From an uncultured delta proteobacterium (GTDB lineage Bacteria; Desulfobacterota; Binatia; UBA9968), in assembly GCA_963804165.1 (NCBI GenBank), contig CAWDPO010000004.1, positions 143,974-207,973 on the forward strand: a stretch of DNA of 64,000 nt, read 5' to 3'. The first letter of the stretch is position 1; every line of letters starts with the position of its first letter. The position numbers and the translations under genes are program-made. A model generated the notes under the pieces. That model ran no database searches. It worked only from the letters and a program-made list of their open reading frames with translations, and was not told the DNA's origin. This document shows positions 16,982 through 44,778 of this stretch, in pieces.

Positions 16982-18023
16982 CAGATGGCGGCCTGGAAGG
17001 TGTTGCCGGCCATCGCGGCCGGCAACACCATCGTCCTCAAGCCGGCCGAACTCACCCCGCTGACCGCCTGATGTTCGCCGAGGTCGCCAGCAGGCCGGCC
17101 TGCCCGACGGGGTCGTCAACATCGTCGCCGGCACCGGTCCGACCGCCGGGCCAGCGCTGCTGCGCCATCCCGACGTCGGCATGGTCTCCTTCACCGGCTC
17201 CACGCGGTCGGGCCGACGGTGCTGGAGGCGGCCGCGGCACCGCCAAACGGGTCCACCTCGAGCTCGGCGGCAAGGCGCCGTTCGTCGTCTTCGACGACGC
17301 CGACCTTGAGGCCGCCGCCCACGGCGCGGTCGCCGGCAGCCTGATCAACACCGGCCAGGACTGCACCGCCGCCACCCGCGCCTATCGTCCACCGCCCCTG
17401 CTACGACCGGAGTTCGTCGACGGCGTCGCCGAGCTGACGGCCAGCGTCCGGCTCGGCCCGACCGCGGACCCGAACACCGACATCGGGCCCGCTCATCTCC
17501 TTGGCCCACCGCGACCGGGTCGCCGGCATGGTCGAGCGCGCCCGCCGGCGTACGCCACCGTCGTCACCGGCGGCGGCGTCCCCGGCGGTGCCGCTGGCGC
17601 GGGGCCGCTACTACGACCCGACCCTCATCACCGACGCCGCGCAGGACAGCGAGATCGTCCGCGACGAGATCTTCGGCCCGGTCCTGGCCGTGCTGCCCTT
17701 CGACACCGACGACGAGGCCATCGACCTGGCCAACGACACCCCGTACGGACTGGCCGCCTCCGCCTGGACCCGCGACGTCTACCGGGCGCTGCGGGCGACC
17801 CGCGAGATCCGGGCGGGCTGCGTCTGGATCAACGACCACATCCCGATCATCAGCGAGATGCCCCACGGCGGCTGAAGGAGTCCGGCTTCGGCAAGGACAT
17901 GTCGGGCTACTCCTTCGACGAGTACACCGGTCAAGCACGTCATGTTCGACATCACCGGCGTCGCCGCAAAGGGCTGGCACGACAGATCTTCACCATCCGG
18001 CCACGGCCGGCCCAACCTCGTGA
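16973..18023 (+). CDS. Aldehyde dehydrogenase (gamma-aminobutyraldehyde DH-like), 5'-truncated and frameshifted
   Basis: [45 protein letters not shown] and EMPHGG.K.SGFGKD, spread over several frames. Confidence 0.88.
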
Positions 18024-30854: not shown

Positions 30855-31003
30855 TGGAGCGGGTGACGGGGACCTTAACTGGCATGGCCAGCTTGGAAGA
30901 CTGCGGTCGTGAGTCGTGTTGACCCAAGTCAGTCGGCAGGGCGCGCTCGTAGCGGCCGTGATGACCGGTTTCCGCCACCCCTCTGGCCCGTTGGTGGCTC
31001 ATC
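30855..31003 (-). repeat. Degenerate ~150-bp element, copy 1: tRNA-Gly(TCC)-like 3' half plus tail
   Basis: tggagcgggtgacggg...ggcatggccagcttggaagactg resembles the reverse complement of a tRNA-Gly 3' half. The tail (tcgt..cg..ccgtga.tgaccgg...tggcccgtt..tggc) is shared with copy 2. Confidence 0.65.
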
Positions 31004-31283
31004 TGCTTGGCCGCCAACGCATTGCAGGCTGCCGCGCTGTCCAACACAGCCGGCAATTGCCATCGGCTCGTCCTCAGACGCGTGACCTGTTCGGGCAGTG
31101 CTCCCCGGAACGGCCATGGGACTGATGCAGCCACAGCCGTCACTTTGCAAGTCGTGGATCGCTCGTAGAGTGCCGGCATCGACCTGATGTCTGCCTCATT
31201 GCGGTCACGGATGCTGTCAACCTCGTGGTCAGGTACGGACACCTCTAGGCGGGGCGATCTACGCCGGCGCGGATTGCAGCTTC

Positions 31284-31580
31284 TCAGGGTGTGACGATCG
31301 GAAGCTCTGATCTGGGTGTGTCCAGCAGGGCGAGGAGTCGTCCGAGGACGTCGGCGTCTCCGTGGTGGTCGATGCCGTCGAGACCGTGGCCGGCCGAGGC
31401 TCGTGGGCCGTCGACGCGAATCGCGAGTGTGTCGAGCAGCTGATCGACGGTCAGCGCGGCCGGCATGCCCGCGCCGGGGTCGAGCTCAGGTGCGCTGGGC
31501 CCGCGGCGCAGCTCGTAGGGTCCGCTCAGTAGAAGAGCGCCAGGTGGCGCTCTCGGAGCCGAAGGGTGCACACAGCTGGG
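31284..31580 (-). pseudogene. Alkyl sulfatase C-terminal remnant
   Basis: Fragments FGSESATWR, LSGPYELR, LTVDQLLDTLAIRVDGPRA and GDADVLGRLLALLD...PIVTP. The N-terminal catalytic domain is absent and an internal stretch appears deleted. Confidence 0.65.
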
Positions 31581-31614
31581 TCAAGAAGCACTTCGAAGAA
31601 TTCGAAGCGGAAGT

Positions 31615-31692
31615 GCGAGGACCGGCCCGCAGCCAGCGCTGGCGAGCCAGGACACGGACCGCAGCGCATGGCGAGCGCACGAGCTGTCTTGA
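31615..31692. repeat. ~78-bp direct repeat, copy 1 (degenerate)
   Basis: gcgaggaccggcccgcagc...aggacacggaccgcagcgc..ggcgagcgca.cgagc.gtcttga also occurs at 38341-38416. Confidence 0.85.
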
Positions 31693-32166
31693 GTGAGTCG
31701 AGCGGGATTCGCTTCGACCTCAGCGCAGTCATCGAGGTGAGTGCTTGCCAACTCTTGGGCATGCTCTGCGGCTTCGCTGAGCTTCGGTCAATGTCGAACC
31801 GGCATTGTTCATTGTGTCGGGCAGGGGGCTCCGCGATGTTGCGCATCGAGCGCGAATCGGATCCTGCCAGGAGGAAACCCAATGACCATCGACATGAAGC
31901 GAATGAGCATCGACCTGAAGCATCGGGAACCCCACGGTCCGGATTCATCCGGGAGCAGCGACACTCAGCTTCGGGCCGCCAAGGCCATAACCAGGGATTT
32001 TATTTTGGCCCGAACCGCACTGGCACTCGGTGCCGGATGGCTCGGCCTGATCTCCGGCCTTCTGATCGGACGATGGTGACCGAACGCCGCCCTGGTGTAC
32101 CTCGACATCCAACGTCGAGGGTTGGTGGCATAAGGTAGACAGGCCCTTGACTAGCGCCTTTCGCTG

Positions 32167-32320
32167 TGGAGCGGGTGGACCGGGATCGAAGCCGGCATGG
32201 CCAGCTTGGAAGGCTGCGGTCGCGGTCCGTACGAGCTCAAGATCAGGCAGCGAGATGTGCTCGTGGCGCACCGTGATTGACCGGTCCTCACCGCGCTTAA
32301 TGGCCCGTTAATGGCCCATG
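32167..32320 (-). repeat. Degenerate ~150-bp element, copy 2: tRNA-Gly(TCC)-like 3' half plus tail
   Basis: tggagcgggtggaccgggatcgaagccggcatggccagcttggaaggctg, ending in the tandem taatggccc-gt-taatggccc. Confidence 0.7.
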
Positions 32321-33602
32321 CCCTTGGTCTCCGGTGACCGCGGCTGTTGTGAGACGTGTTGCCTGTGGGCCGACACTACCGAGTAGGGCCATCAGAGGCT
32401 CTTTGTCACTCCCGGGAGTCCACCCACTCCACCTCGCGTGACAGAGACCCACTCAGTCTGGCGTTGGCCCACTCGACTTTGATGGCGTCGAAGTTGCTGT
32501 TGCTGACCGCGATGACTACGCCGTACTCCTCGTCTCGCCGCACGACCGCGCCTACGTTTGCCATGAGGCGATCCTAAGGGCGCAGATCCTCGTGGGGGCT
32601 TGCCGTCAGGACAACAATCGCTTGAAGTAACCAGGCCGCGCGTTCGAGTTGACCGTCGGACTCGAGACCAACCGCCTGCCTACAAGGAGGATGCGGGGTT
32701 GGATTGTGGCGCCCGGTGAGCCTACAGCGAGGTGCCTGATGGAGGTTCCGGACTGCTCGTAAGTGGGGTCAGTTTGGGGTCAGAATGGCGTCAGTAGTGG
32801 CGCCGATGTGATGCTGATTGACCGCTTCCGTGTCAGGGAGGCGCGCGCTCACAGATCTACCCCACAGTTTTACATTTGGCCGCCGACGACCCCCAGTTCG
32901 GCGGAGTGCGGGGTGATTGGCTGACAGTCCTATCTGTCCAGGGTGGCGGTGGTTGCGACGCCCTACGCACGCTCGACGCGGTCCATCAGGTGCCAAAGTT
33001 TAGCGCGGCCCGGATCGGCCGCGGCAGTTACTTCAACAGCGCCGACGAGCCTTTCGCCTACTCAGAGATTCGAGTCATGCATCGATGGCGACGGGTTGTC
33101 GTCGTGGACTTTCACCCGGGCACCCGCCAGAACCGCTTCCAAGCGGTTAACCCACAACTCATCTGGCTTAGCGGTAGTCGCCAACTTGCAACCTCGCTGC
33201 TGGACGGTCTGGCGTGGGTCTACGCACTACGAGCCGCTCGGGAGTCGTCCTCCCGGGCCTCGCTGAGCGTGAATCTGTCCAGCAGCGGACGACCCAGACC
33301 CGCCGAGTAAGCGTCGTTGGCTGCCGCTCTGGCTGCCACACCGGCAAACTGCGAAAGTCTCGACGGGGGCGTGACGCTGGATTCACAAACACTCCGAGGT
33401 TGGAGTCAGTCCCCTCAGGTCGACCTGCTTGGTCCACGTTCCGGTCGTTCGCACCCGGACATGTCCGCGCCGAACCCTACCACTACGAGGACGGATCGGC
33501 CTGCGTCAGGGTGCCACCCTGGCGCTTACCGGCTGTTGTGGCTATTGATCGCCATGTGGTGCGGACGCTTTGAGACCATGGACGGCGACTGATATCCATT
33601 CA

Positions 33603-34933
33603 CTACAGGCCTTTCGGATCAGCGGCCTCAACCTCTTCGACTGAAGGATGAATGACAATCAGTTCGGGTTGAGTGAGCTCACTTACGCCATCTGCTCCGT
33701 CAACTGGCTCCTTGGTCGCCGAGTTGTCGTCGGATGATGACGCGGCCACGTCACCTACTTCAGGTAGCGCCTCGCCGTCCGCGGGTGACGCAGCGGAAGA
33801 GTCTAAGGGAAGGTCGATGCGGTCCTGTTCATTCTTAGGTTCTCGAACTTCCTTGGACGGATCCATAATCATTTCTCTTGCGAGCACACGAAAACTTGGG
33901 CTCAACTTGGCGCTCGAAGCCAAATACTGGATGACGTCAAGCAATAGTTTAGCGGATACAACGTCATAATCTTCGCCAAAAGCCGTTAGAATGGATGGCC
34001 GCCGACCCCATATAAGGCTTGCGATTGCCACTTCACAATAGCGCATTCCGTCAACAATACTCCGCTGCCTAACGAATAGTCGCGCGAATGTTTCTGCGAG
34101 TGGATCAAAATATTCAGGGGTCAAATTGGTATCCAGATGCGGCGATAGGCGCCGGGTTGCACTCAGCCGCGCCTCTTTCTCGCGTATTTCGATCTGTCCA
34201 CCGAGGAAATACTCGCGAAGAGTATTGTAGACCTGAGACGTCTTGGTCCTCCTAACGTACTCGGCGGCGCGCGCTAGAGTAAGGAGGTAGATCCATGTGC
34301 AGTCGAAAAGCATGGCGACATGCACTGGATTCTTGCTGTCGAGAGTCGGCGCGGCAGACCTTGAAGATGGACCACCATCTGAGCGAGATTACGCTCGGAA
34401 CTGTAGATCCAGTTGTCATAACGAAGGTAGTCGCTCAGCGGGCCGAGTCGACTGTCGAGGCCAGTGAACGCCTGCTTTGTCTTTTCTGCTGTCGAGGCCT
34501 CAAACAAGCGGGTAACGGGAGCACTTGGCGCCCCCACGCTAGTCATCGCGAGTAACACTTCTAGGTCCTGCCGAGTGAGCACACCCAAACGCAATTTGCC
34601 GGCAAGCTGGCGTGACGCTTCAGTAACTTCACTTTCCCGAAGCATCCACGCGTCGTCAACGTCGAAGAAGTCCGCAACGCCCCTTAGCCAGAAGACACGC
34701 TCAGTGGTCCTGTTGCTACTCGACTTGCAGTCGAATACCTGGCTGGTCACTCGCCCACTTGAGGCAAGCTCAATCGAGAGAAGATCTAAATCCGTATACT
34801 CTTGGAACTGGGACTTCCCTGGCCGCCTCTCGACGTATGCTCGAAGAGGCACGTTCAGGCGCGTCGCCGAACCTTGAGGATTCCAAGCAAGTCGTCGCGC
34901 AGCCAGTTTTAAGTCTAGGTCTTTCTCGCTCAC
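33603..34933 (-). CDS. Hypothetical ~440-aa protein with N-terminal PD-(D/E)XK-like nuclease motif (one frameshift near 34340)
   Basis: Joins ORFs 34274..34933 and 33603..34325. Contains EYTDLDLL...VFDCK..TERVFWLRG and has an acidic C-terminal tail. GC is visibly lower than the flanks. Confidence 0.65.
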
Positions 34934-36189
34934 AGTTCCCCCGCCCCATTAACACCTCGAACGCGACACCCAACTCCTTTTCGGGAATTATAGCGCGGAC
35001 CCTGGTGCGAGCCGAAGCTTGGAGTGGGCGCAGAGCTCGAGCGTCGAGGTCGAGTAGTGCTTTCACGTCGGATCCGGCCTCTCGTGCGGTAGCAACCTCC
35101 TCACCGGAAATAAGGCTAATGGCAATCTGCATCGCCTCATCATTCTCGGGTGTATGGATGAAACTCAGCCGGAACCCAACTACCTCCTGGATATGAGTCA
35201 GGTAAGAATCGAATGATCCCAAGATCACGGAGAAGCTTATATTGCCGCGCATGGGAAGAGTGTGCGTTTAGTGCTTCGCGACTAAATAGAGCGTTAAGCA
35301 CTGTGGCAGCGTCTCTTGCTGATGTTGCCCCACCAAAATGCTAGCATCGACGCAAGCAACGATAGCGAGCGCCTTATCCAGTATCACCTTCCGATCACGG
35401 GTCAATGACGCGTCAAGCATGTAGGGCAATGCGGCAAATGTTCGAAGCGATCCTCCGGGCAGCAATACCCCGGGCGCGGAAATGAGCCCCTTCTTCACTG
35501 CGTCTGCAAGCACCAAGTCTGTCTCCGGGTCCACCGGCAGTCCTTGGTATGCGGCAACCTTATCGAATGCCTGGGCCAGAACCTCAGGGCCATGATTCAT
35601 CATGATCTCGCGGACAGTCGCTGGATTCTCAAAAGCAGTATAAGGGGAGTACAACAATGTCCCATTCGACGTCTCGGCAGTGCGAAAGATCGACGCATCG
35701 ACGCCCAATCTGTAAAGACGGTCAATGTCTGAAGCATCCACACCAAGATCGCTCTCAAGCGTTTCCTAGGGCAACCGGTCCACGAGCTAACCGGTCAACC
35801 ACTGCGACAAGCTCCTCCTCAATTTGCCTTGGATTTCTCGCCTTCCAGGCTGCCCCATCGGCATACAGATCGCGAAATATTGGTACATTTTCAATAATTC
35901 GTGAGATCTCACCTTGATTCCGATCCACTTCGACCATTTCAGCCGCTTCGAGAATGTCAATAACGCTGGTAAAGGCCAGAGATGGAATATCGAGAGTCTC
36001 ACTGGAAACGATCTGCAACGCGTCTATATTGCTGATGACGTTGCGGCCCCGGATGAGGCTAGCGAGGTCAGCAGCCATGCCAACCATCTGAGTGGTTTTT
36101 ACAAGGTGCAGCTGACTAGACGCCTGGTCCACTTCGCGGAGACCCAGAGTGACGTCCTGGCATCGCAATCCCGTGCTGAAGTCTTCCAT
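34930..36189 (-). CDS. Hypothetical ~420-aa protein (several frameshifts)
   Basis: Joins ORFs 35755..36189, 35268..35741 and part of 34770..35252. A GGGAG RBS lies upstream. The inferred stop overlaps the next gene's GTG (GTGA). Confidence 0.65.
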
Positions 36190-36372
36190 GCGGCTCCCCT
36201 GTGCGGCCGAACCGTCGGCGTCGGTTCGGTCGGACGACGTACGATACAGCGAGGGTGTTAGCCGCCCAAGTTCGGGCTGGCAGTTGGGTCTTTATGTCAG
36301 GAGAAGTACTCGTCGGGTGTGTTTCGCAGCGGGCGATGCCAGCGCGTGAGTCGGTTGTGAACATCACAACGC

Positions 36373-38162
36373 TCACTCGCTGTCGAGGAAATAGCTTGAG
36401 TTCATCTCGGGGTTTGGGGCAAGAGGCACCCAACCGACGTGGGTGATTCGTCCCATTCGGCCATCTCGCCCATCTTGGGCGTCGTTTGGACGGGGCTGTG
36501 CTCGATCTTCGAGCGCCGTTCGGGCCGCGTTGACTCGATCGCACTGCGCTGCTGTGAGGTAGAACGCCAGCGACTCAAGGTGACGCCAGTGTCTGAAGAA
36601 CACCTCGTATTCGGGGTCCCGGGTGATGGTGTCCTCAAGGAGTTGCACCGCGGCCTCGACTGACTCTTTGGCCACTCGCCTCCGAAGGTTCGGGAGGAGG
36701 TTGATCATCCCGTCCTCACTGACGATGATGATGAGACATTCCCCATTGTGCGTGTAGTGGTACCGCACCACTGAGTTGAATCGAGCTCCTCGGCTCGCGT
36801 CGCCTTTACCAGACGCATGTCCGTCGAGGATGACCCCCACCGCATGGCATGTTCCTTGTGGATCGACCAGGACAGCGCCATCGATACTCGTCACGGCAGC
36901 CAGCACCGCCAAGTCGAGATGCTGCGGGCGAATCTGTTGTGCTTGCGGGGGCAGTCGGGAGGCTTCCCCACTGGCGTCCCTGTGAACGACCAGCATGGTT
37001 CCGTGCGAGGCTTTGGACGCGGCGTCAGCCAGCTGCCACAAGGCATTTGACGCATTACCATCGATCTCGGGGAACGGCCGGACTGCGCTACGTCAACGAA
37101 ATGCTGGGGATCCAGGTGAGGCTGCGGAAGTGTCGGCCTCGTGTTCGTTACTCTGAGCATCGGAACTTGATTGTGGCTCAGTTCCCAAACGCCGCGGGAC
37201 ATCACGCTAAACACGAACGCGCTCTCTGCTGAGGGCAGATAACTGTTCCTCAGACGGGCTAAGCCCAACACTTCGGCTCCGTCGCACAGGAGCTGTTGAC
37301 CTCCGCCTGTCATCTCTAGGGCCTTTCGAACGGAACGGGTTTCAGAGAGCCCTATGGGCTTGACGAAGTCAAGGACAAATTCTAGGTGCGCATTCGATTT
37401 GGACGCCAGCAATAGCCCCCCAGACACCGGAACGGCCCTCGTATGGTTGGGCCGAGACCTCATTGAGTGCGACGACCAAATCTGATGGAAGTTCGCAACC
37501 GCTGAATATAGAGACCGATTGGACGAATTCGCGTGCGGCCTTCCTAATTAGTTCGGAGCGGTCGGACCAGTGAAGCGAAAAATCCTCTGGAGGAGTGCTG
37601 CGACCGAGATCGGCGGTTGCAGTGAGTAGCTCGCGTACCAGGGAGTGCTGCAGCGAGGGGAGTACCGTGTATCGGTCGACCTTGACTCGGCTCAGGGCGG
37701 GCATGGAATCCCATCGCCGGGGTAGGCCCGCAATAACCGGGTGCACTTCGTAGACTCCGTCAACGAGTGCCGACGAGCCCACGAAGAAGGTCAGATCCTC
37801 GCCCTGCAAGGACTCGGCCAAGGCATCGCGAATCACTTCTGCGCGGAATTGGTCCACATGTTCACGATGAATCTGCTCATGGTGGCGCACGCTGCTGTAG
37901 ATCATCCGGGCTTCGTCGCTTGCCTTGTACCGCTTCTGCGCTTCCGCCATTGAACCCGACAAATCCACTGCTGCGAGGGGGTCCCATTCTGGTTCAAAGC
38001 AGATTGGGAACGGCCGATCCTCAGCCTCAGTGAACCCGATCAAAAACGCTCGGGCGCCGAGCCCAAATCCAATCTGTTCAAATACATCCCTCGTCACGTT
38101 CTCTAGGCCGTATCGGAAGTGAGACTGGAACCCCACATGAACTGGAGTATTGAGTTTCGCAC
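36373..38162 (-). CDS. Long DisA_N-type diadenylate cyclase with a large N-terminal extension (frameshifted)
   Basis: The C-terminal domain has HGTMLVV, SIDGAVLVD, GVILDG, SRGARFNS and IIVSEDG (DGA plus a variant RHR motif). With one homopolymer correction the N-terminus reads VRNSILQFMWGFQSHFR. The middle has ALNEVSAQPYEGRSG and RKALEM. Confidence 0.85.
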
Positions 38163-38340
38163 GGGTCCATCGTCTAGGACTCAGATCCGATTGGTCAACG
38201 GGTACCCAGATGTGCATCGGTCTCATCGTGGTTTCAATTGGTGTCTCCAAGCTGCGGAGTGGGCTTCGATATCGTTGGAGTCTAGTGTGGGGCAGATATG
38301 CCCTGTTTGTGGTCGCGGTTGCTGAAAAAGGTTGGGCTAC

Positions 38341-38416
38341 GCGAGGACCGGCCCGCAGCGAGCGCAGCGAGCGAGGACACGGACCGCAGCGCGGCGAGCG
38401 CAGCGAGCCGTCTTGA
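38341..38416. repeat. ~76-bp direct repeat, copy 2
   Basis: gcgaggaccggcccgcagcgagcgcagcgagcgaggacacggaccgcagcgcggcgagcgcagcgagccgtcttga, with the internal unit gcgagcgcagcgagc present twice. Confidence 0.85.
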
Positions 38417-38739
38417 TTCAGGAGAGGCAGATTGGGCAGTCGGCTCGGATTACAGCTCGGACTACGGTCGACTTGGATTACAAACCGGTGACCGCCCACC
38501 GAACCGTTCCTGTCGCTGCTCAATAGTCCAAGCCGATGGTGCTAAGCATGCGCGATGCGCTGGACCACGGCGATACAGGCCAGGTACCCACGCGCACGGG
38601 TCGCCGTGAGATCAGGTGCCTCGTCGCAGCGGATGCACCGGCCGTTCGGTGGCGCTACGGCTCACACGGTCGCCGACGCCGCCGCCCAACTCGGACGCTC
38701 GATGGTCATGCGTCTCGCTTCCTGCAGAATCTCCGGCGG

Positions 38740-39330
38740 GGATCAGCTGTGCATATTCGGGGAGCTCCTGGACCGTCCGGTTGTGCCGTCTCGCGGTCCT
38801 TGGCGAGGACAATGTCTCCGGCGCTGAGGCCGGCTTTGAGGCTGATGCGGACCCATTCGCCGATCAGGATGCCGTTCTTGAGTTTGAGGATCAAGGTGCC
38901 TTTGGAGCGGGCTGCGGGATCGTCGATGATGTCCAACCGAAGAGGTCGGTGTCGTCGGCGTGGAGTTCTGAGCGCCAGGCAAACGCCTGCCTCCGGGGCG
39001 GCGGCGTCTGGTGAGGCCGGCAGGATTTCGACGCGGCGGCCGCGGTGGGACAAGCTCATCAGGACCGGCGTGAAGGGTGTCGGCCTTGTTGTCGAGGCCC
39101 TTCCAGCAGCTCCACCAGGTGCCAGAGAAGGTCGGCGGTCCGCCCGGCGAGCTCGTCGATGGTGATCGCCAGCGTCTGGGCGAGGGCGCGAGCGGCCTGC
39201 AGGGGCGGTTCGGCGTCGCCGCTTTCGTAGCGGCGGATTTGCCGGGGGTCGAGCCCGACCGCAGCCGCCAGCTCGGCCTGGGACAGGCCGAGCTCGACAC
39301 GCCGACGCCGATGACCTCTGCCGTCTGCAC
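38740..39330 (-). CDS. XRE-family HTH regulator with a beta-rich C-terminal domain (frameshifted)
   Basis: Frame-corrected: MQTAEVIRRRRVELGLSQAELAAAVGLDPRQIRRYESGDAEPPLQAARALAQTLAITIDELAG, then FSGTWWSCW...RSKGTLIL...LIGEWV...GDIVLAK. Confidence 0.8.
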
Positions 39331-39729
39331 GGTAAGGGATTACCCCCTCGAAACCCTGATGAGGACGATTAAGTCCGATAAGCGGACCTCTAGTGCTCTA
39401 GTTTAGGACCATCAAGTCCGCAACTAGGACAAAACCAAGTATAGGGGTGACGATGGCCACGAGACGCCGACCAGACCCAGGGCCAGACAGATTGCCGATC
39501 TGGCTGGCTGAAATGCCTGGCAGTTGCGGGCACACCCCCGGAGCGTCCTGACGCCGGCTCCGCGGCGCGCACTCGGTCGGCACGCCGTATCGATCGGCGT
39601 GGCTCAGGTATCTGCTGCCGCAACCGTTGTTTCACCCCGCTTGACCTCGACCGTGGATGCACTGCGAAGTGCGCTACAGGACCGCCCGGCCCAAACGAAC
39701 TCAGCATCAACCCGACAAGGAGATCCAAC

Positions 39730-40371
39730 ATGACCCCCATCCGCCTCGCCGCAGTCCTCGCCACGACCGCGTCGAGCGTCACCGCAGCCGCCGGCTGCGC
39801 GCCGATTCCCCAGGTCGCGTGCCGCAGCAGTCGCCGACTCTGTCCCTTCGACCAGCTCTGAGCCGATGCAGGATCCGACGCCGTCGATCTCACCAAGCGC
39901 GTCGCCGACCGTCGAGGCAACCCCGTCGAATCCGAGCAGCCCACCATCGACCGACAAGCCATTTGCGGTACGTAAGGGCACGATCGACAGCAAGCGGATC
40001 AGAGCCACGCTGTACCCGGTGTCACGAACTGGGCGTACCTCAACGGTCAACCTCTTCCTCGAGGAAATCAAGCCATCTCCGATGGGCTTCCGCATCCTGT
40101 GGTCGATGAGTGACCGCAATCAGGAGGTCGCCGCCAACGACAACACCGCAGTCGACGGCCTCCGGCTGATCGACGGAAAACACAAGATGGCGTACTTGCC
40201 GGCCACCACCGGTGACGGGGAATGTCTGTGCAGCCCGGCTCACAACCACGTAACGAACAACTACCGCGAGGTGATGATCACCGTGATCTTCGCCGCCCCA
40301 CCTGCCAGCACGACAGTGTCGACGTCATGATCCCGATATTCGGCACGGTCAACGATGTCCCCGTTGTCTAG
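39730..40371 (+). CDS. Secreted or lipoprotein, Pro/Ser-rich linker (frameshifted)
   Basis: AAGGAG RBS, a signal peptide with AGC, DGLRLID...YLPA....ECLCS and FAAPPA..TTV.DV.IP.FG...DVPV. Confidence 0.7.
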
Positions 40372-40925
40372 GGCGCGAACGGTCGGGGTCGCGACCGCAA
40401 CGGCCACTGTGCTCGCAGTTTTCCTCGCCACTCCCGCCTCTGCCGAGCAGCCGGGGGCCGACCCACCTGCAGATCCAACGGCGCCGGTCGTCTCGATCAC
40501 CGCACCGGTCATCCCCATTCACACCGGCACCGCCGATCTCCGGGCGGCGCACCACCCGCCAGGACACCAAGACCGGCGCGAAGGTTCGGCTGGATAGCAC
40601 CATTCTGTTCGCCAAGGACAGCGCAGCGTTGCAGCCGGGGGCGAAGACCAGGATCCGCCGGGCGGCACGGTGGCTTCGCGCCCGCGGGCCGGGCGATGTC
40701 ACCGTCATCGGGTACACCGACGATCTCGGTCCGCCCCAGCATGGGCTGGACCTGTCCTATCGCCGGGCCGCCGCCGTCGCCCGTATCCTCCGTGATGCGC
40801 TGCCCGGCCGGGTGATCGCCTACACAGGTATGGGCGAGGCCAATCCGCGCCGTCCCAACACCAGCGAGGCCAACCGGCGGCAAAACCGCCGCGTCATCAT
40901 CACCATGGTCGAACGACGCCGATAG
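40355..40925 (+). CDS. OmpA/MotB C-terminal domain protein (frameshifted)
   Basis: LDSTILFAKDSA.L, VIGYTDDLG...GLDLSYRRA.AV and G.GEANP...N....NRRQNRRV. Confidence 0.88.
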
Positions 40926-41126
40926 AACGTTGAGCCAATCGACAGGCTCCCGTACAGGCCGGACTTCGCATTGGAACCGATGGTGCGCCTGAGCACGGTT
41001 GTCCACAGGTTGTTCGACCCGTTACGGATTCCGCGCTGAGCCCTTAGGCTGCCGAAATCTCTCACGGAACCGTGACCACCAAGGCGGCCTGACGTCCTTA
41101 GGTTCACAGGATCGGAAGGAGTATCG

Positions 41127-41750
41127 ATGAGAATCGCGATCACAAGAATTCGCGCGCTCTGTGCCATTCCCCTAGTGGTCACTGCCTTGACGGTCGGATC
41201 TGCCTGCTCGGAGCCCTCCACCGGCCCCGTTCCGACGCCGTCATCTGCCGTGTCGTCACCGCACCCGCATCGCCCCCGACGCCGACGCCGACGGCCCGCC
41301 CCACGGCGGACGCGAAGACCGAGGCAGCTCGCCGCGAGGTGCTCGCCCTGGTCGACAAGTACTACAAGGTCGATGAGGCGATTGCTGAGCAATCCGCAGC
41401 GTTCCGCTCGACCGGTATTACAGGTCGCTGGCGGAAAGTACGTCCATGTGCTTTTGCAGAATGCGCAGAGCCAGCGCGCCCAAGGCTACAGGGTAATCGG
41501 AGCGTTCGATTCGGCCGTCGCGAGGTCCCTGAGAACCTGACCCGTCCGGTGATGACGAGAAGCTGCCTCGGCAACGGTGCAGAACTGCCTGGACGTCCGC
41601 AGAGTCGACGTGGTGGACCAGGAGGGCAAGTCGGTGGTCGAGCCGAACCGGGCCGATGCGTACGTTGAACGGTTGAGGCTGCAGAAGAAGAAGTACGGCT
41701 GGCGAGTGGTGGCCGGCAACAACAAGGGAACGGCCCGATGCGACGCTTGA
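41127..41750 (+). CDS. Putative lipoprotein (frameshifted)
   Basis: AAGGAG RBS, a lipobox-like SAC, a Pro/Thr linker and CLDV..VDVVDQEGKSVV. Confidence 0.6.
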
Positions 41751-42634
41751 TCTCGACCCTTATCCTCTTAGCCGGGATCCTGACAGCAATGGCCTTCGCG
41801 CCAGAGACGTCCCTGCAGTCCCCACATGCCTGAAGACTGATCTGCGGACCGGAAGTCTGCCTGGTCGAAGTCCAGGTGCCCGGCGATCCCAAGCCGATCT
41901 CCGACGACAAGCCCAGAGTCAAGCCGGACCGGTGGAAATCCCGGGTGACCTGCTCGACGGCGAACAAAGGTCCCGTGTCGACACAGCGCCGGGATCTGGT
42001 CCGACCAGCACCGCTGCTACGTAAAGCGCGTGGCGAAGCAACTCCGAAGTCCGATCCGTCGTGGGAGGGCCATACGACCGGAGCGTGTACTACACTGATT
42101 CCAGGCCGACGACAACGATACCTATCCTTCTGGCTCGCAACCGCCCCTGGAGCCGCACCTCCACCTGATCCGCGCGTCCTGGCCCAACAAGCCATCCAGT
42201 CGATGCAGCTGCACGCCATCGAAATCGGGATCGTTCCTGAACCGCGCCCGGACCGGATCGGGGTGATTGGTTTGCCGACGTGGATGTGGGCTGACAGTCC
42301 TGATCAGCACACGTGGGGTCCGATCACCCGGACGGCGTCGGCTGGTGGTTACACGGTGACGGCGACGGGTCGGGTGCAGCGGGTGGTGTGGGCGATGGGG
42401 GATGGGTCGACGGTGGTGTGCACGAAGCGGGGCACGCCGTATGCGGATTCGTTCGGGAAGCGGTCGAGCCCGGATTGCGGTCACCGGTACACCCGTCAGG
42501 GCCGTTACACGGTCCGCGCGACCTCGTATTGGGTCGTGGAGTGGGCCGGGATCGGCCAGTCCGGAACGATTCCGATGAATTTCACCAGCACAGCGGTGAT
42601 CACCATGGGCGAGGTCCAGGTGCTCAGCCGCTAG
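41738..42634 (+). CDS. Secreted actinobacterial protein of the family often labelled 'ATP/GTP-binding protein'
   Basis: PPDPRVLAQQA, GLPTWMW, WAMGDG..VVC...GTPY, SPDCGH.Y and Y.VRATSYW...W.G.G. No Walker A motif is seen. Confidence 0.75.
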
Positions 42635-42658
42635 AAGCGTCGAGCCGAGGAGTTGATC

Positions 42659-43362
42659 ATGTCGGTCACCGTGAACGGACGCAACAAGCCAGCCGCGGCC
42701 ACGGCTGACGGCAAGCCGAAGGAGCGCGCGGCGGCCGCCGAGCGTGGGGGCGGTGGCGGCGCCGCCGAGGTTGCGGCGCCGGCCGCTGCTGGCGGTCGCG
42801 TCGGTGGCCGCGGTGTGTCTGGGCGCGTTGTTGGCGGCGTGGGCGTACACCTCGATCAGCACCGCCCAGGAGGTGGTGGCGGTCCGGGCCGAGTGTGCAG
42901 CGGGGTGAGGTGATCACCCGGGAGGACCTGGTCACGGTCCGGGTGGGGGTGGATCCGGCGCTGAAGCCGGTCCCGGCCGCGGAGCTGGACTCGATCGTCG
43001 GCCAGCGGGCCGCGCTGGACCTGGCCGCCGGCGGGCTGGTCACCGCCGACCGGTCACGCCGGCGGTGTTGCCGGCGCAGGGCATGTCGGTGGTCGGGGTG
43101 GCGCTGCCCACCGGATTGTTGCCGGGGGAGCCGTTGCAGGTGGGGGACCGGGTGCGGGTGGTCGCCACGCCGGGGGAGCAGGGCGAGGTCACCGAGCGGC
43201 AAGCAGCGGTCGATTCCGGCCACGGTGGTGGGCCTGTACCCGGACGCCGACAACGGGCGGACGGTGGTGTCGGTGCAGGTTCCGTTCGATCAGGCGGCGG
43301 AGCTGGCCGCCCGGTCGGCGACCGGCAAGGTCGCATTGGTGTTGGACTCCCGGGAGCGGTGA
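42659..43362 (+). CDS. SAF-domain (CpaB-like) membrane protein (frameshifted)
   Basis: An N-terminal TM segment, VQRGEVITREDL..V, IVGQRAALDLAAGGLVT and LQVGDRVRVV. Confidence 0.75.
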
Positions 43363-43367
43363 CGGCG

Positions 43368-44166
43368 ATGGCGTTGATCGTGTTGACCTCGGCGGCCGGA
43401 TCTCCGGGGGTGACGACCACCGCGGTGGGTTTGGCGTTGACCTGGCCGCGGCCGGTGCTGTTGGTGGAGGCCGACCCGACGGGCGGCTCGGCGGTGCTGG
43501 CCGGCTACTTCCGGGGGGGCACCGGCCACCCGGCGGGGTTGATCGATCTGGCCTGGGCGGACCGGCAGGGTTCGCTCGCCGCCACCCTGCCCGGGTTGAC
43601 CATGCCCATCCCGGATTCGCAGGCCGTCCTGCTGCCGGGGGTCCGGGCCCATGGGCAGTCCCGACAGCCTGGTCGGACTGTGGGAGTCGCTGACCGCGAC
43701 GCTGAAAGGTTTGGAGTCGACGGGCCAGGACGTGCTGGTCGACGCCGGCCGGCTCGGCCTGACCGGTTCACCGGAGCCGCTGATCTTCGGCGCCGACCTG
43801 ACGTTGTTGACGGTGCGGACCGATCTGGTGGCGCTGTCGGCGGCCCGGTCGTGGGCGGAGACGTTGCGTCGAGGATTCGACGCAGCACGGGCGCGGCGGG
43901 CCGGCTGGGTCTGCTGCTGGTCGGGGACGGCCGCCCCTACGGGGCGCGGGAGGTGTCGAAGGTTCTGCAGCTGCCGGTGACGGCGGCGCTGCCGTGGGAT
44001 CCGGAGGGGGCGGCGGTGTTCTCCCGCGGCGCAACCCCGCCGCGCCGGTTCGACCGGTCCCCGCTGACCCGAGGCCTCCGGGCCGCGCCGCCGCGGCGAT
44101 CGACGCAACCGGTCGACCGCACCCGGGACCAGCCTCGACACGGCCGCTGCGGGGGTGCGGTCGTGA
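43368..44166 (+). CDS. ParA/MinD-like (CpaE/TadZ-like) protein with degenerate Walker A (frameshifted)
   Basis: LTSAAGSPGVTTTA, LLVEADPTGG, DVLVDAGRL and LPWDP. Confidence 0.75.
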
Positions 44167-44778
44167 ACCGCGCACGCCTGAGCGAATCGCCCGAGGAGCC
44201 GGCGGATCCGGCGGAGCTGCCACTGTTCGCCGCCGACGGCACGCAGCCGGCCCGGCCGGGCCGGGTGCGGTCCCGGTTCTCGATGAGGGTCGACACCGTG
44301 CCCACCCCAGCGATGCACGCCGCCGACCGCTTCCCGGGCGGCCACATCACCGCGGTCCACGCGTGCCCACGCAGTGGACCCGGCCGGTTCCGTCCGGCTG
44401 GGCCGGTGGGCGACGGGATGGATTGGTCGCAGGTGGCGATTCTTCCGGTCGCAGGCCTCGGATCGGCTGAGCGCGGCGCTGGGCGAGGGGCTGGGCCGGC
44501 TGGATCGGGACGGGCAGCGGGAGCTGGGCCGGGCGATCATTCTCGAGCTGCTGCAGGCCGAGGCCGCGGCCCGCATCTCCGAAGGGGTGGAGCCGTGGAC
44601 GGCCGGTGGAGCAGGATCGGCTGGCCGCGGGCGGTGTTCGACGCCTTGTTCGGGCTGGGCCGGCTGCAGCCGCTGGTCGATGACGACCGGGTCGAGAACA
44701 TCATCATCACCGGCCACGAAACGGTCCGGCTGGAGCTGACCGACGGCACCATCATTCCCGGCGACCCGGTCGCGGGGC
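44163..44778 (+). CDS. CpaF/TadA-like secretion ATPase, N-terminal fragment truncated at a junction
   Basis: AVFDALFGLGRLQPLVDDDRVENIIITG...DGT...GDPVA. The sequence switches before the Walker motifs. Confidence 0.8.

What the first reader, a model, noticed from the sequence alone, without database searches (positions are those of the whole stretch)
33603..38416. Candidate cyclic-nucleotide conflict island: long diadenylate cyclase upstream of a coupled unknown-protein/nuclease pair
Seen: three co-oriented minus-strand genes inside a block bounded by ~76-bp direct repeats and next to tRNA-derived scars. They are a ~600-aa protein with a C-terminal DisA_N domain (SIDGAVLVD, SRGARFNS, IIVSEDG) and a ~380-aa soluble N-terminal extension starting FMWGFQSHFR, a ~420-aa unknown protein, and a ~440-aa protein with a D-x(n)-D-x-K motif. 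Established: DisA_N/DAC domains make c-di-AMP, housekeeping DACs are DisA (with HhH) or CdaA (with TM helices), and signal-plus-effector layouts define CBASS, Pycsar and Thoeris. This DAC has neither HhH nor TM segments and has RGARFNS in place of RHR. Inference: an infection-sensing nucleotide cyclase, perhaps with a non-canonical product, linked to a nuclease effector. A ~180-bp gap separates the DAC from the pair, so they could be independent cassettes in one defence island.
Basis: partly seen in the sequence, partly recalled or inferred. Interest (0 to 1): 0.82.

Follow-up and report, generated by a model that had tools for sequence, protein, structure and literature searches.

The report
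Known cyclase beside independent nuclease pair
The three genes are two separate pieces of cargo: a signalling enzyme from a family already shown to act in phage defence, and an unnamed but widespread two-gene nuclease module that looks like a defence system of its own.

Summary
The three genes, the 76-bp repeats and two tRNA-Gly 3' scars are real. The proposed cyclase-to-nuclease system is not supported.

The DAC is DACNG-DACNH-DAC (CdaG / DS-2C). That family is published as needed for DS-2 defence and as making 3'3'-c-di-AMP. RGAR[FY]NS is its normal motif (112 of 120 homologues).

The pair is A, a tandem winged-helix protein, and B, an N-terminal PD-(D/E)xK nuclease plus a helical domain. 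No cyclic-nucleotide sensor was found in either. A and B sit together in 47 of 58 metagenome loci and 11 of 13 plasmid loci, across three phyla. No DAC lies in 68 A loci, and no A/B in 8 DAC loci.

The pair matches no Pfam, NCBIfam or PADLOC family. It has defence neighbours in 14 of 26 loci against 0 of 12 controls.

Best reading: two independent cassettes at the tRNA-Gly end of an actinobacterial island. The pair is an unnamed candidate defence system and is the part worth testing. The stretch is error-rich and looks chimerically joined into a 55%-GC genome.

The parts
36373..38139 (-). CdaG / DS-2C-type diadenylate cyclase (DACNG-DACNH-DAC plus C-terminal helical part), about 590 aa; three frame switches (near 38133, 37420, 37085); possible earlier GTG start at 38163
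   Evidence: Pfam DACNG E 2e-44, DACNH E 3e-18; NCBIfam NF053872 DS2_3_antiphage over all three pieces, 148+96+241 bits; 70-75% to intact P0248, which also scores Pfam DAC
36774..36888 (-). DAC active-site motifs SIDGA (D at 36882) and RGARFNS (from 36792)
   Evidence: sequence; DGA in 109 of 120 and RGAR[FY]NS in 112 of 120 homologues
36190..36372 (.). 183-bp gap between the DAC and the pair; GC falls from 59% (DAC) to 54% (A, B)
   Evidence: no promoter- or terminator-like site above chance
34930..36189 (-). Gene A: about 420-aa protein of tandem winged-helix-like domains, N-terminal ones acidic; no family match; at least three frame switches
   Evidence: homologues; AlphaFold2 model of close homologue P0102, pLDDT 84; fold searches; charge
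33603..34933 (-). Gene B: N-terminal PD-(D/E)xK (Mrr-like) nuclease domain, helical C-terminal domain, acidic tail; one frame switch near 34360; start overlaps the stop of A
   Evidence: homologues; AlphaFold2 model of P0125, pLDDT 92; Z 13.2 / rmsd 3.2 / 112 aligned to AF1548, Z 11-12 to VC1899, Can2, Cdn1 nuclease domains
34724..34795 (-). B catalytic motif TDLD...DCK
   Evidence: T50 D51 L52 D53, D71, C72 invariant and K73 at least 90% in 114 homologues; kept in distant plasmid homologues
38341..38416 (.). 76-bp imperfect-hairpin direct repeat, copy upstream of the DAC
   Evidence: 90% to the other copy, E 1.6e-21; DNA hairpin about -20 kcal/mol, no shuffle control
31615..31692 (.). 76-bp direct repeat, second copy
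32167..32216 (-). tRNA-Gly 3'-half remnant ending in CCA (att-like scar 1)
   Evidence: best match to tRNA-Gly among 54 tRNAs; above all background windows
30855..30903 (-). tRNA-Gly 3'-half remnant ending in CCA (att-like scar 2); left edge of the low-GC island

Best explanation
Two independent cargo units have accumulated at the tRNA-Gly end of an actinobacterial integrative element. Unit 1 is a CdaG/DS-2C cyclase without a CBASS operon. It most likely makes 3'3'-c-di-AMP (shown for other DS-2C proteins, inferred here) and acts through host or unlinked immune receptors, not through A-B. Unit 2 is a self-contained two-gene anti-phage or anti-plasmid module. B is the nuclease effector (fold and catalytic residues shown by prediction and conservation; activity inferred). 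A is its obligatory non-catalytic partner. My preferred mechanism, all inferred: A's acidic tandem winged-helix array holds B in check and is the sensor. A phage protein, or the shut-off of host expression, removes or reshapes A, and B then cuts DNA and aborts infection (guard or toxin-antitoxin logic). Odds: independence 0.9; a defence role for A-B 0.75; the guard/TA mechanism, given defence, about 0.55.
For: Independence: the DAC profile hits 0 of 68 A loci (650 kb; 53 have at least 600 bp and 40 at least 2 kb upstream of A) and rings in all 8 distinct DAC loci; A/B profiles hit none of those 8. Three DAC-bearing Actinomycetes genomes lack B, and the one genome with the pair lacks DACNG. Contig-length matches between homologue lists: A-B 15, DAC-A 1, DAC-B 1, chance 0.8. 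GC differs. Coupling of A-B: B follows A directly in 47 of 58 metagenome loci. Of the other 11, six end at the contig edge, two have a broken A and no B, and three are short fragments. B follows A in 11 of 13 plasmid loci from Actinomycetota, Bacillota and Pseudomonadota. No third gene recurs. Defence context: 14 of 26 distinct metagenome loci have a defence-specific PADLOC hit at E<=1e-15 (pAgo, RM types I/II, RosmerTA-like, Tiamat, Shedu, AbiE, SIR2 PDC-S65, PDC-S19/S20/M05A), against 0 of 12 arbitrary Actinomycetes stretches. On a Bacillus mycoides plasmid the pair lies between an ABC-three-component (Lamassu-type) system and Thoeris. On other plasmids it lies beside Menshen NsnABC and IetAS. 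Mechanism hints: the first three A regions are acidic (D+E 12-18% vs K+R 6-8%). The top structural matches include protein-binding winged helices (Cdt1, cullin WHB, UFL1, ESCRT-II). One plasmid keeps A without B (L009), and one has a truncated B with no A detected (L114).
Against: No experiment and no expression data. Only 8 DAC loci were examined, none from the closest (70-76%) DAC homologues. The control set is small and shorter per locus (38 proteins in 12 stretches vs 126 in 27 loci), and I chose which hits count as defence-specific. ABC ATPase, UvrD and single-domain helicase hits were set aside in both sets; a full-length TAP-like peptidase hit was set aside in the controls. 12 of 26 pair loci show no such defence neighbour. 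A's winged-helix matches are middling (best Z 7.9), many are DNA-binding regulators, and residues 190-421 were barely tested. A's C-terminal third is mildly basic. The A-only and B-only loci are single cases.
Confidence: 0.7

Rival explanations
1. One reading: one three-gene signalling system. The DAC senses infection through DACNG/DACNH and makes a cyclic dinucleotide that A or B's helical domain binds, switching on the nuclease.
For: Adjacent and co-oriented inside one repeat-bounded block. DS-2C proteins are active cyclases and are needed for defence in DS-2, with only 15 of 30 homologues next to CBASS, so other partners may exist. B's nuclease domain resembles those of the cyclic-oligonucleotide effectors Can2, Cdn1 and Card1. 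One unresolved contig-length match.
Against: 0 of 68 A loci have a DAC and 0 of 8 DAC loci have A/B. The Can2/Card1 match covers only residues 1-135, the generic nuclease domain, not the CARF sensor. The pair is common in Proteobacteria, which by recalled knowledge mostly lack c-di-AMP. There is a 183-bp gap and a GC step.
Confidence: 0.07
2. Independent pair, but restriction-like. A is a DNA-binding specificity or sensor subunit that recognises a structure or modification on foreign DNA (ends, single strands, modified bases) and recruits B to cut it directly, as in a methyltransferase-free type IV or Shedu-like nuclease.
For: A's architecture resembles the multi-winged-helix nucleic-acid binders RPC62 (best Foldseek hit, E 6.6e-4, TM only 0.14), STK19 and AlkX. 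Its C-terminal third is basic. B resembles Mrr-type, NucS, AspBHI and MspJI nuclease domains. No methyltransferase is consistently linked.
Against: A's N-terminal winged-helix regions are strongly acidic. Structural similarity is only domain-level.
Confidence: 0.3
3. The pair is a selfish addiction or maintenance module of plasmids and integrative elements (toxin-antitoxin), with no anti-phage role; its defence-island location is passive.
For: Found on plasmids and beside transposases, integrases and relaxases. A survives without B in L009.
Against: Neighbourhoods are dominated by defence systems rather than partition genes. Both proteins are large for a classical TA pair (recalled knowledge).
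Confidence: 0.15
4. The DAC-pair adjacency is an assembly artefact of an error-rich, chimeric contig end.
For: Abrupt mid-gene changes near 16990 and 44775 and GC of 65-80% in a 55% genome. B was found in 0 of 60 relatives of the host assembly.
Against: The DAC ends at its family's normal C-terminus and A starts at its normal N-terminus. Both sit inside one pair of 76-bp repeats and upstream of the same tRNA-Gly scars. No break is seen in the gap.
Confidence: 0.05

Closest known systems
CdaG / DS-2C diadenylate cyclase (Pfam DACNG PF21752 + DACNH PF21750 + DAC PF02457; NCBIfam NF053872), third gene of DS-2 (DeWeirdt et al., PMC13092281; Ragucci et al., 10.64898/2026.08.10.743927)
   Same: Same three-domain order, size (about 590 vs about 550-580 aa), C-terminal helical part, DGA and RGAR motifs; the profile matches across the whole length.
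   Different: No CD-NTase or phospholipase beside it here. The summed score of the three pieces (485 bits) is under the 630-bit equivalog cut-off, so it is a relative from an actinobacterial clade, not DS-2C proper. Three actinobacterial relatives also showed no CBASS hit.
Panoptoo / PanDA (minimal DAC PanS + S2TM-beta PanE; 10.64898/2026.08.10.743927, PMC13640721)
   Same: A DAC domain used in anti-phage signalling.
   Different: PanS is a ~150-aa bare DAC with a membrane effector; this DAC is ~590 aa, and neither A nor B has a TM segment or beta-barrel.
Cyclic-oligonucleotide-activated nucleases Can2/Card1/Cdn1, Cap4, NucC
   Same: B's residues 1-135 share the PD-(D/E)xK domain fold (Z 8.9-11.6 for Can2/Card1/Cdn1, 6.7 for NucC).
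   Different: The match does not extend to CARF or SAVED domains. B has a helical C-terminal domain and an obligatory winged-helix partner instead.
Mrr-like / type IV nucleases and two-gene PD-(D/E)xK defence systems (PD-T4, PD-T7, PD-lambda, DS series, PDC candidates)
   Same: PD-(D/E)xK effector, no cognate methyltransferase, found in defence islands; weak Mrr_cat similarity.
   Different: No match at E<=0.001 in PADLOC 2.0 for 87 diverse A and B homologues; in NCBIfam (June 2026) only one weak ArsR HTH hit. The tandem winged-helix partner was not found described in the searches run.

Membership tests
CdaG / DS-2C-type DAC | DACNG-DACNH-DAC domain order | tested here: met
   Pfam hits on window pieces; all three domains on the 70-75% identical intact homologue P0248
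CdaG / DS-2C-type DAC | DGA and RHR-equivalent (RGAR) catalytic motifs | tested here: met
   family counts; a DS-2-arranged Gluconobacter homologue has RGARYNS
CdaG / DS-2C-type DAC | Makes 3'3'-c-di-AMP | not testable with these tools
   shown for Hymenobacter DS-2C proteins in the preprint; inferred here
NCBIfam NF053872 DS2_3_antiphage equivalog | Score of at least 630 bits | tested here: inconclusive
   three broken pieces sum to 485 bits; no intact close homologue was scored against this model
DS-2 system | Phospholipase and CD-NTase next to the DAC | tested here: not met
   neighbours are A, B and an XRE-type HTH; present in 2 of 8 DAC loci elsewhere
Panoptoo / PanDA | Minimal ~150-aa DAC plus S2TM-beta effector | tested here: not met
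   DAC about 590 aa; no TM segment in A or B homologues; folds are winged-helix and nuclease
   0 of 68 A loci with DAC; 0 of 8 DAC loci with A/B
   no CARF/SAVED/STING hit by profile; B residues 140-365 and A residues 190-421 were not folded and searched alone
PD-(D/E)xK nuclease superfamily (gene B) | Restriction-endonuclease-like alpha/beta core | tested here: met
   Z 13.2, rmsd 3.2, 112 aligned to AF1548; 18 chains at Z>=8, nearly all nucleases of this fold
PD-(D/E)xK nuclease superfamily (gene B) | Conserved D...D/E-x-K catalytic residues | tested here: met
   D53, D71 invariant and K73 at least 90% in 114 homologues
PD-(D/E)xK nuclease superfamily (gene B) | Metal-dependent nuclease activity | not testable with these tools
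   needs biochemistry
Named two-gene defence systems in PADLOC 2.0 / NCBIfam 20.0 | Profile match of A or B | tested here: not met
   (87 diverse homologues)
Ceres, Veles, Oshun (Mordret et al., 10.1101/2025.01.08.631966) and later DefenseFinder entries | Gene content and sequence match | not testable with these tools
   the passages read do not describe these three systems; figure and bioRxiv supplement not available; DefenseFinder models not on hand

The most novel reading that the evidence does not exclude
The CdaG/DS-2C cyclase is a plug-in accessory that can serve unrelated nuclease systems as it serves CBASS in DS-2. Here its c-di-AMP would be read by an undescribed sensor, either A's winged-helix array or B's helical domain, making this a new signal-effector pairing. 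A milder and likelier novel reading (probability about 0.4, interest about 0.6): A-B is an undescribed guard-type nuclease defence system, found in at least three phyla, whose sensor/inhibitor is an acidic tandem winged-helix protein.
Probability: 0.07. Interest if true: 0.8.

Novelty: new variant of a known kind. Interest (0 to 1): 0.42.

Why it matters
The headline claim, a new cyclic-nucleotide system, falls: the cyclase belongs to a named, biochemically tested family. Two testable things remain. First, A-B is a tightly coupled, broadly spread two-gene module (486 A representatives at 50% identity). It sits among known defence systems and has no family model, so it is a ready candidate for a phage-challenge test in Streptomyces or Bacillus. 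A multi-winged-helix partner for a PD-(D/E)xK effector was not found in the searches run. Second, actinobacterial CdaG cyclases occur without CBASS (this locus and 3 of 3 genomes sampled). That bears on an open question both 2026 preprints state: what DS-2C/CdaG does and what DACNG/DACNH sense.

Tried and rejected
Complex prediction of A with B (residues 1-370): no verdict (scores 0.44, 0.24, 0.19; mark 0.32); not used either way. Sequencing runs: none was listed for 31000-39500, so frameshifts and junctions could not be checked against reads. The search for related loci with the DAC C-terminal piece in genome contigs gave 2 short weak matches, which the DAC profile did not confirm; treated as spurious. 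The search of 60 relatives of G000 found B in none; uninformative because the stretch is probably foreign to that assembly. A: 1 of 401 Actinomycetota genomes, and that locus duplicates one already counted. DACNG: 3 of 401 Actinomycetes genomes. Viral collections: no A in viral contigs or phages; no DAC in viral contigs; one partial DAC match in a Bacillus phage. PDB sequence-profile searches for A and B found nothing significant; BFVD nothing at E<=0.001. Families not listed in fold searches are not thereby excluded. The 76-bp repeat gave only short, weak matches in 59 of 251 Actinomycetes genomes (best E 1e-6). None of the 20 fetched match loci held a tRNA, and pair and DAC loci showed only 16-28 bp matches, so the repeat is not a conserved part of either unit. 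A HEPN reading of B's RN-x6-H stretch was considered and dropped (spacing off, no profile hit; motif recalled). Weak PDC-S26 (E 0.004) and Csa3 hits for A and the Atlas DpdG lead (score 0.76) reflect generic HTH and were rejected. Promoter/terminator scan was at chance level. Literature: six RefSeq accessions of pair homologues appear in no held paper; two concept searches and passages of a BREX survey gave no description of the pair. The Galperin 2023 paper is not held, so CdaG is cited through. Four look-ups of earlier scan findings returned nothing.


Full report
1. Observation. The three minus-strand genes, their motifs, the 183-bp gap, the two 76-bp repeats (31615-31692, 38341-38416; 90%) and two tRNA-Gly 3' remnants (32167-32216, 30855-30903) are all present. 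Each gene is split by frame switches but aligns end to end with intact homologues: P0248 at 70-75%, P0102 at 50-62%, P0132 at 37-48%. A neighbouring aldehyde dehydrogenase is split into four ORFs as well, so read errors are more likely than decay (inference; no reads were listed).

The stretch from about 17000 to 64000 is mostly 65-80% GC and ends a contig of a genome whose contigs are 53-58% GC. There are abrupt mid-gene changes near 16990 and 44775. It is probably foreign sequence joined in. Named homologues point to Actinomycetota; the closest named DAC homologues are Kribbella and Nocardioides, 67-73%.

2. The cyclase is a known kind. Window pieces hit Pfam DACNG (E 2e-44) and DACNH (E 3e-18), and all three hit NCBIfam DS2_3_antiphage (148, 96, 241 bits; cut-off 630). 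Three papers cover this family:
- DeWeirdt et al. (PMC13092281; passages): DS-2 is phospholipase + cGAS-like enzyme + DAC. DAC catalytic mutants lose defence, and 15 of 30 homologues lie next to CBASS.
- Ragucci et al. (10.64898/2026.08.10.743927; parts 1-2 of 5 plus passages): DS-2C is DACNG-DACNH-DAC of about 550 aa, purified homologues make 3'3'-c-di-AMP, and their exact role is called open.
- PMC13640721 (passages): the family is CdaG after Galperin 2023 (not held; not read).

Of 8 distinct DAC loci, 2 have the DS-2 layout. The 3 actinobacterial ones (3 of 401 genomes) show no CBASS hit. One sits beside AbiE and a type IIG RM enzyme; two lie among housekeeping genes.

3. The pair is its own module. 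B follows A directly in 47 of 58 metagenome loci; of the rest, 6 stop at contig ends, 2 have a broken A without B, and 3 are short fragments. On plasmids, 11 of 13 fetched loci have A-B (Streptomyces, Mycolicibacterium, Priestia, Bacillus, Clostridium, Burkholderia, Roseomonas, Komagataeibacter). One has A alone, and one a truncated B without detectable A. No third gene recurs.

A profile of the 120 DAC homologues hits none of 68 A loci (53 with at least 600 bp upstream; a few loci are near-duplicates) and rings in all 8 DAC loci, none of which has A or B. At genome level, three DAC genomes lack B and the one pair genome lacks DACNG. Contig-length matches between homologue lists give A-B 15, DAC-A 1 and DAC-B 1, against 0.8 by chance. 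The DAC-A match is too short to hold both genes; the DAC-B match stays unresolved.

4. What A and B are. Neither matches Pfam, NCBIfam or PADLOC. Among 87 diverse homologues the only hit was one weak ArsR HTH. The nearest Atlas clusters are unnamed. A has 486 representatives at 50% identity.

B's model (pLDDT 92) has an N-terminal PD-(D/E)xK domain: Z 13.2, rmsd 3.2, 112 aligned to AF1548; Z 10.6-11.9 to VC1899, Can2, Cdn1 and NucS, all within residues 1-135. D53, D71 and K73 are conserved. The rest of B is helical and unassigned.

A's model (pLDDT 84) has winged-helix domains at about 23-118 and 125-189 (best Z 7.9 to the Cdt1 C-terminal domain). Two more are suggested by secondary structure and by weak Foldseek matches to the multi-winged-helix proteins RPC62, UFL1 and STK19 (best E 6.6e-4, TM about 0.15). 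No catalytic motif stands out among 79 diverse A sequences. Residues 23-255 are acidic and residues 256-421 mildly basic.

5. Context of the pair. I called 198 neighbours in 32 larger metagenome loci and scanned 126 of them from 27 loci; L035 was dropped as a duplicate of L034. In 14 of 26 loci a defence-specific PADLOC family scores E<=1e-15, and one more locus has weaker SIR2 and Abi_C hits. Twelve arbitrary 8-kb Actinomycetes stretches (38 proteins) gave none; their only hits were ABC ATPase, UvrD and a TAP-like peptidase. The control is small, shorter, and my classification is a judgement. Plasmid examples agree: between a Lamassu-type ABC three-component system and Thoeris, beside Menshen and IetAS, and beside a restriction endonuclease. 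Other plasmid loci show only mobile or ordinary genes.

6. How it most likely works.
- Shown by computation: domain identities, catalytic residues, A-B coupling, absence of DAC linkage, defence-rich neighbourhoods.
- Inferred for the DAC: it makes c-di-AMP and acts through unlinked receptors.
- Inferred for the pair: B cuts DNA. A restrains and triggers it (guard model, about 0.55 given defence) or guides it to foreign DNA (restriction-like rival).
- Inferred for the locus: the two scars, both pointing away from the SAF/OmpA/HTH region at 39-44.8 kb, fit repeated integration at a tRNA-Gly gene that lies outside the assembled stretch, with cargo collecting at that end.

7. Novelty and verdict. 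The proposed three-gene conflict system is not supported (0.07). The cyclase is a new member of a known family, notable only for lacking CBASS. The pair appears undescribed in the libraries and searches used. I could not compare it with Ceres, Veles and Oshun (Mordret et al.; passages only), with DefenseFinder, or with bioRxiv supplements, where it may already be listed as a prediction. Two-gene PD-(D/E)xK defence systems are a familiar class, so I rate it a new variant of a known kind, interest 0.42.

Noticed in passing
window ~16990 and ~44775 (G000:C4 end): Abrupt mid-gene switches (ABC-type binding protein to aldehyde dehydrogenase by my reading; pilus-type ATPase region to MoeA) with GC steps 55 to 72% and 69 to 77%. 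The last 47 kb of this contig looks like sequence from one or two other organisms; findings there should not be assigned to the G000 taxon.
   Followed up: partly
window 38700-44775: Frameshifted XRE-type HTH gene (about 39300-38750, minus strand, read by eye), then OmpA-family and SAF-domain genes and ParA/TadA-like ORFs (last two recalled, no profile hit); looks like the transfer or pilus region of an actinobacterial integrative element.
   Followed up: partly
window 31615-31692 and 38341-38416: The 76-bp repeat is an imperfect hairpin beginning TCAAGAC on the minus strand. Weak partial matches occur in 59 of 251 Actinomycetes genomes, not beside tRNAs in 20 fetched loci. Possibly a REP- or MITE-like element; unexplained.
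   Followed up: partly
window 32400-33150 (minus) and 31287-31571 (minus): Protein-like fragments with stops between B and the first scar, and an alkyl-sulfatase C-terminal fragment between the two scars (Pfam E 1.5e-10): remains of earlier cargo.
   Followed up: no
L078 (G282) and L079 (G756): Solo CdaG cyclases inserted among housekeeping genes; in L078 between what read as Pup-proteasome genes (names recalled from sequence). No defence gene in the ORFs scanned from either 19-kb stretch.
   Followed up: partly
L121:2419-4719 (Bacillus phage PHBA67-J): A phage carries a 766-aa protein with a DACNH-DAC-like middle (32% over 270 aa to P0248) next to its integrase: possibly a prophage-borne defence cyclase with different flanking domains.
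   Followed up: no
L017, L027, L038, L043: HTH-IrrE (RmrA-like) metallopeptidase genes are the commonest defence-type neighbours of the pair (4 of 26 loci; IrrE-domain genes also in L014 and L004), at varying distance and orientation.
   Followed up: no
L004:9890-13558: ThiF, multi-ubiquitin and ImmA/IrrE genes next to the pair on a Mycolicibacterium plasmid; no PADLOC hit at E<=1e-15.
   Followed up: no
L009:6998-8272 and L114:4947-5696: A kept intact with B missing on one Streptomycetaceae plasmid; B truncated with no A detected on a Bacillus cereus plasmid. Single cases that fit toxin-antitoxin asymmetry.
   Followed up: partly
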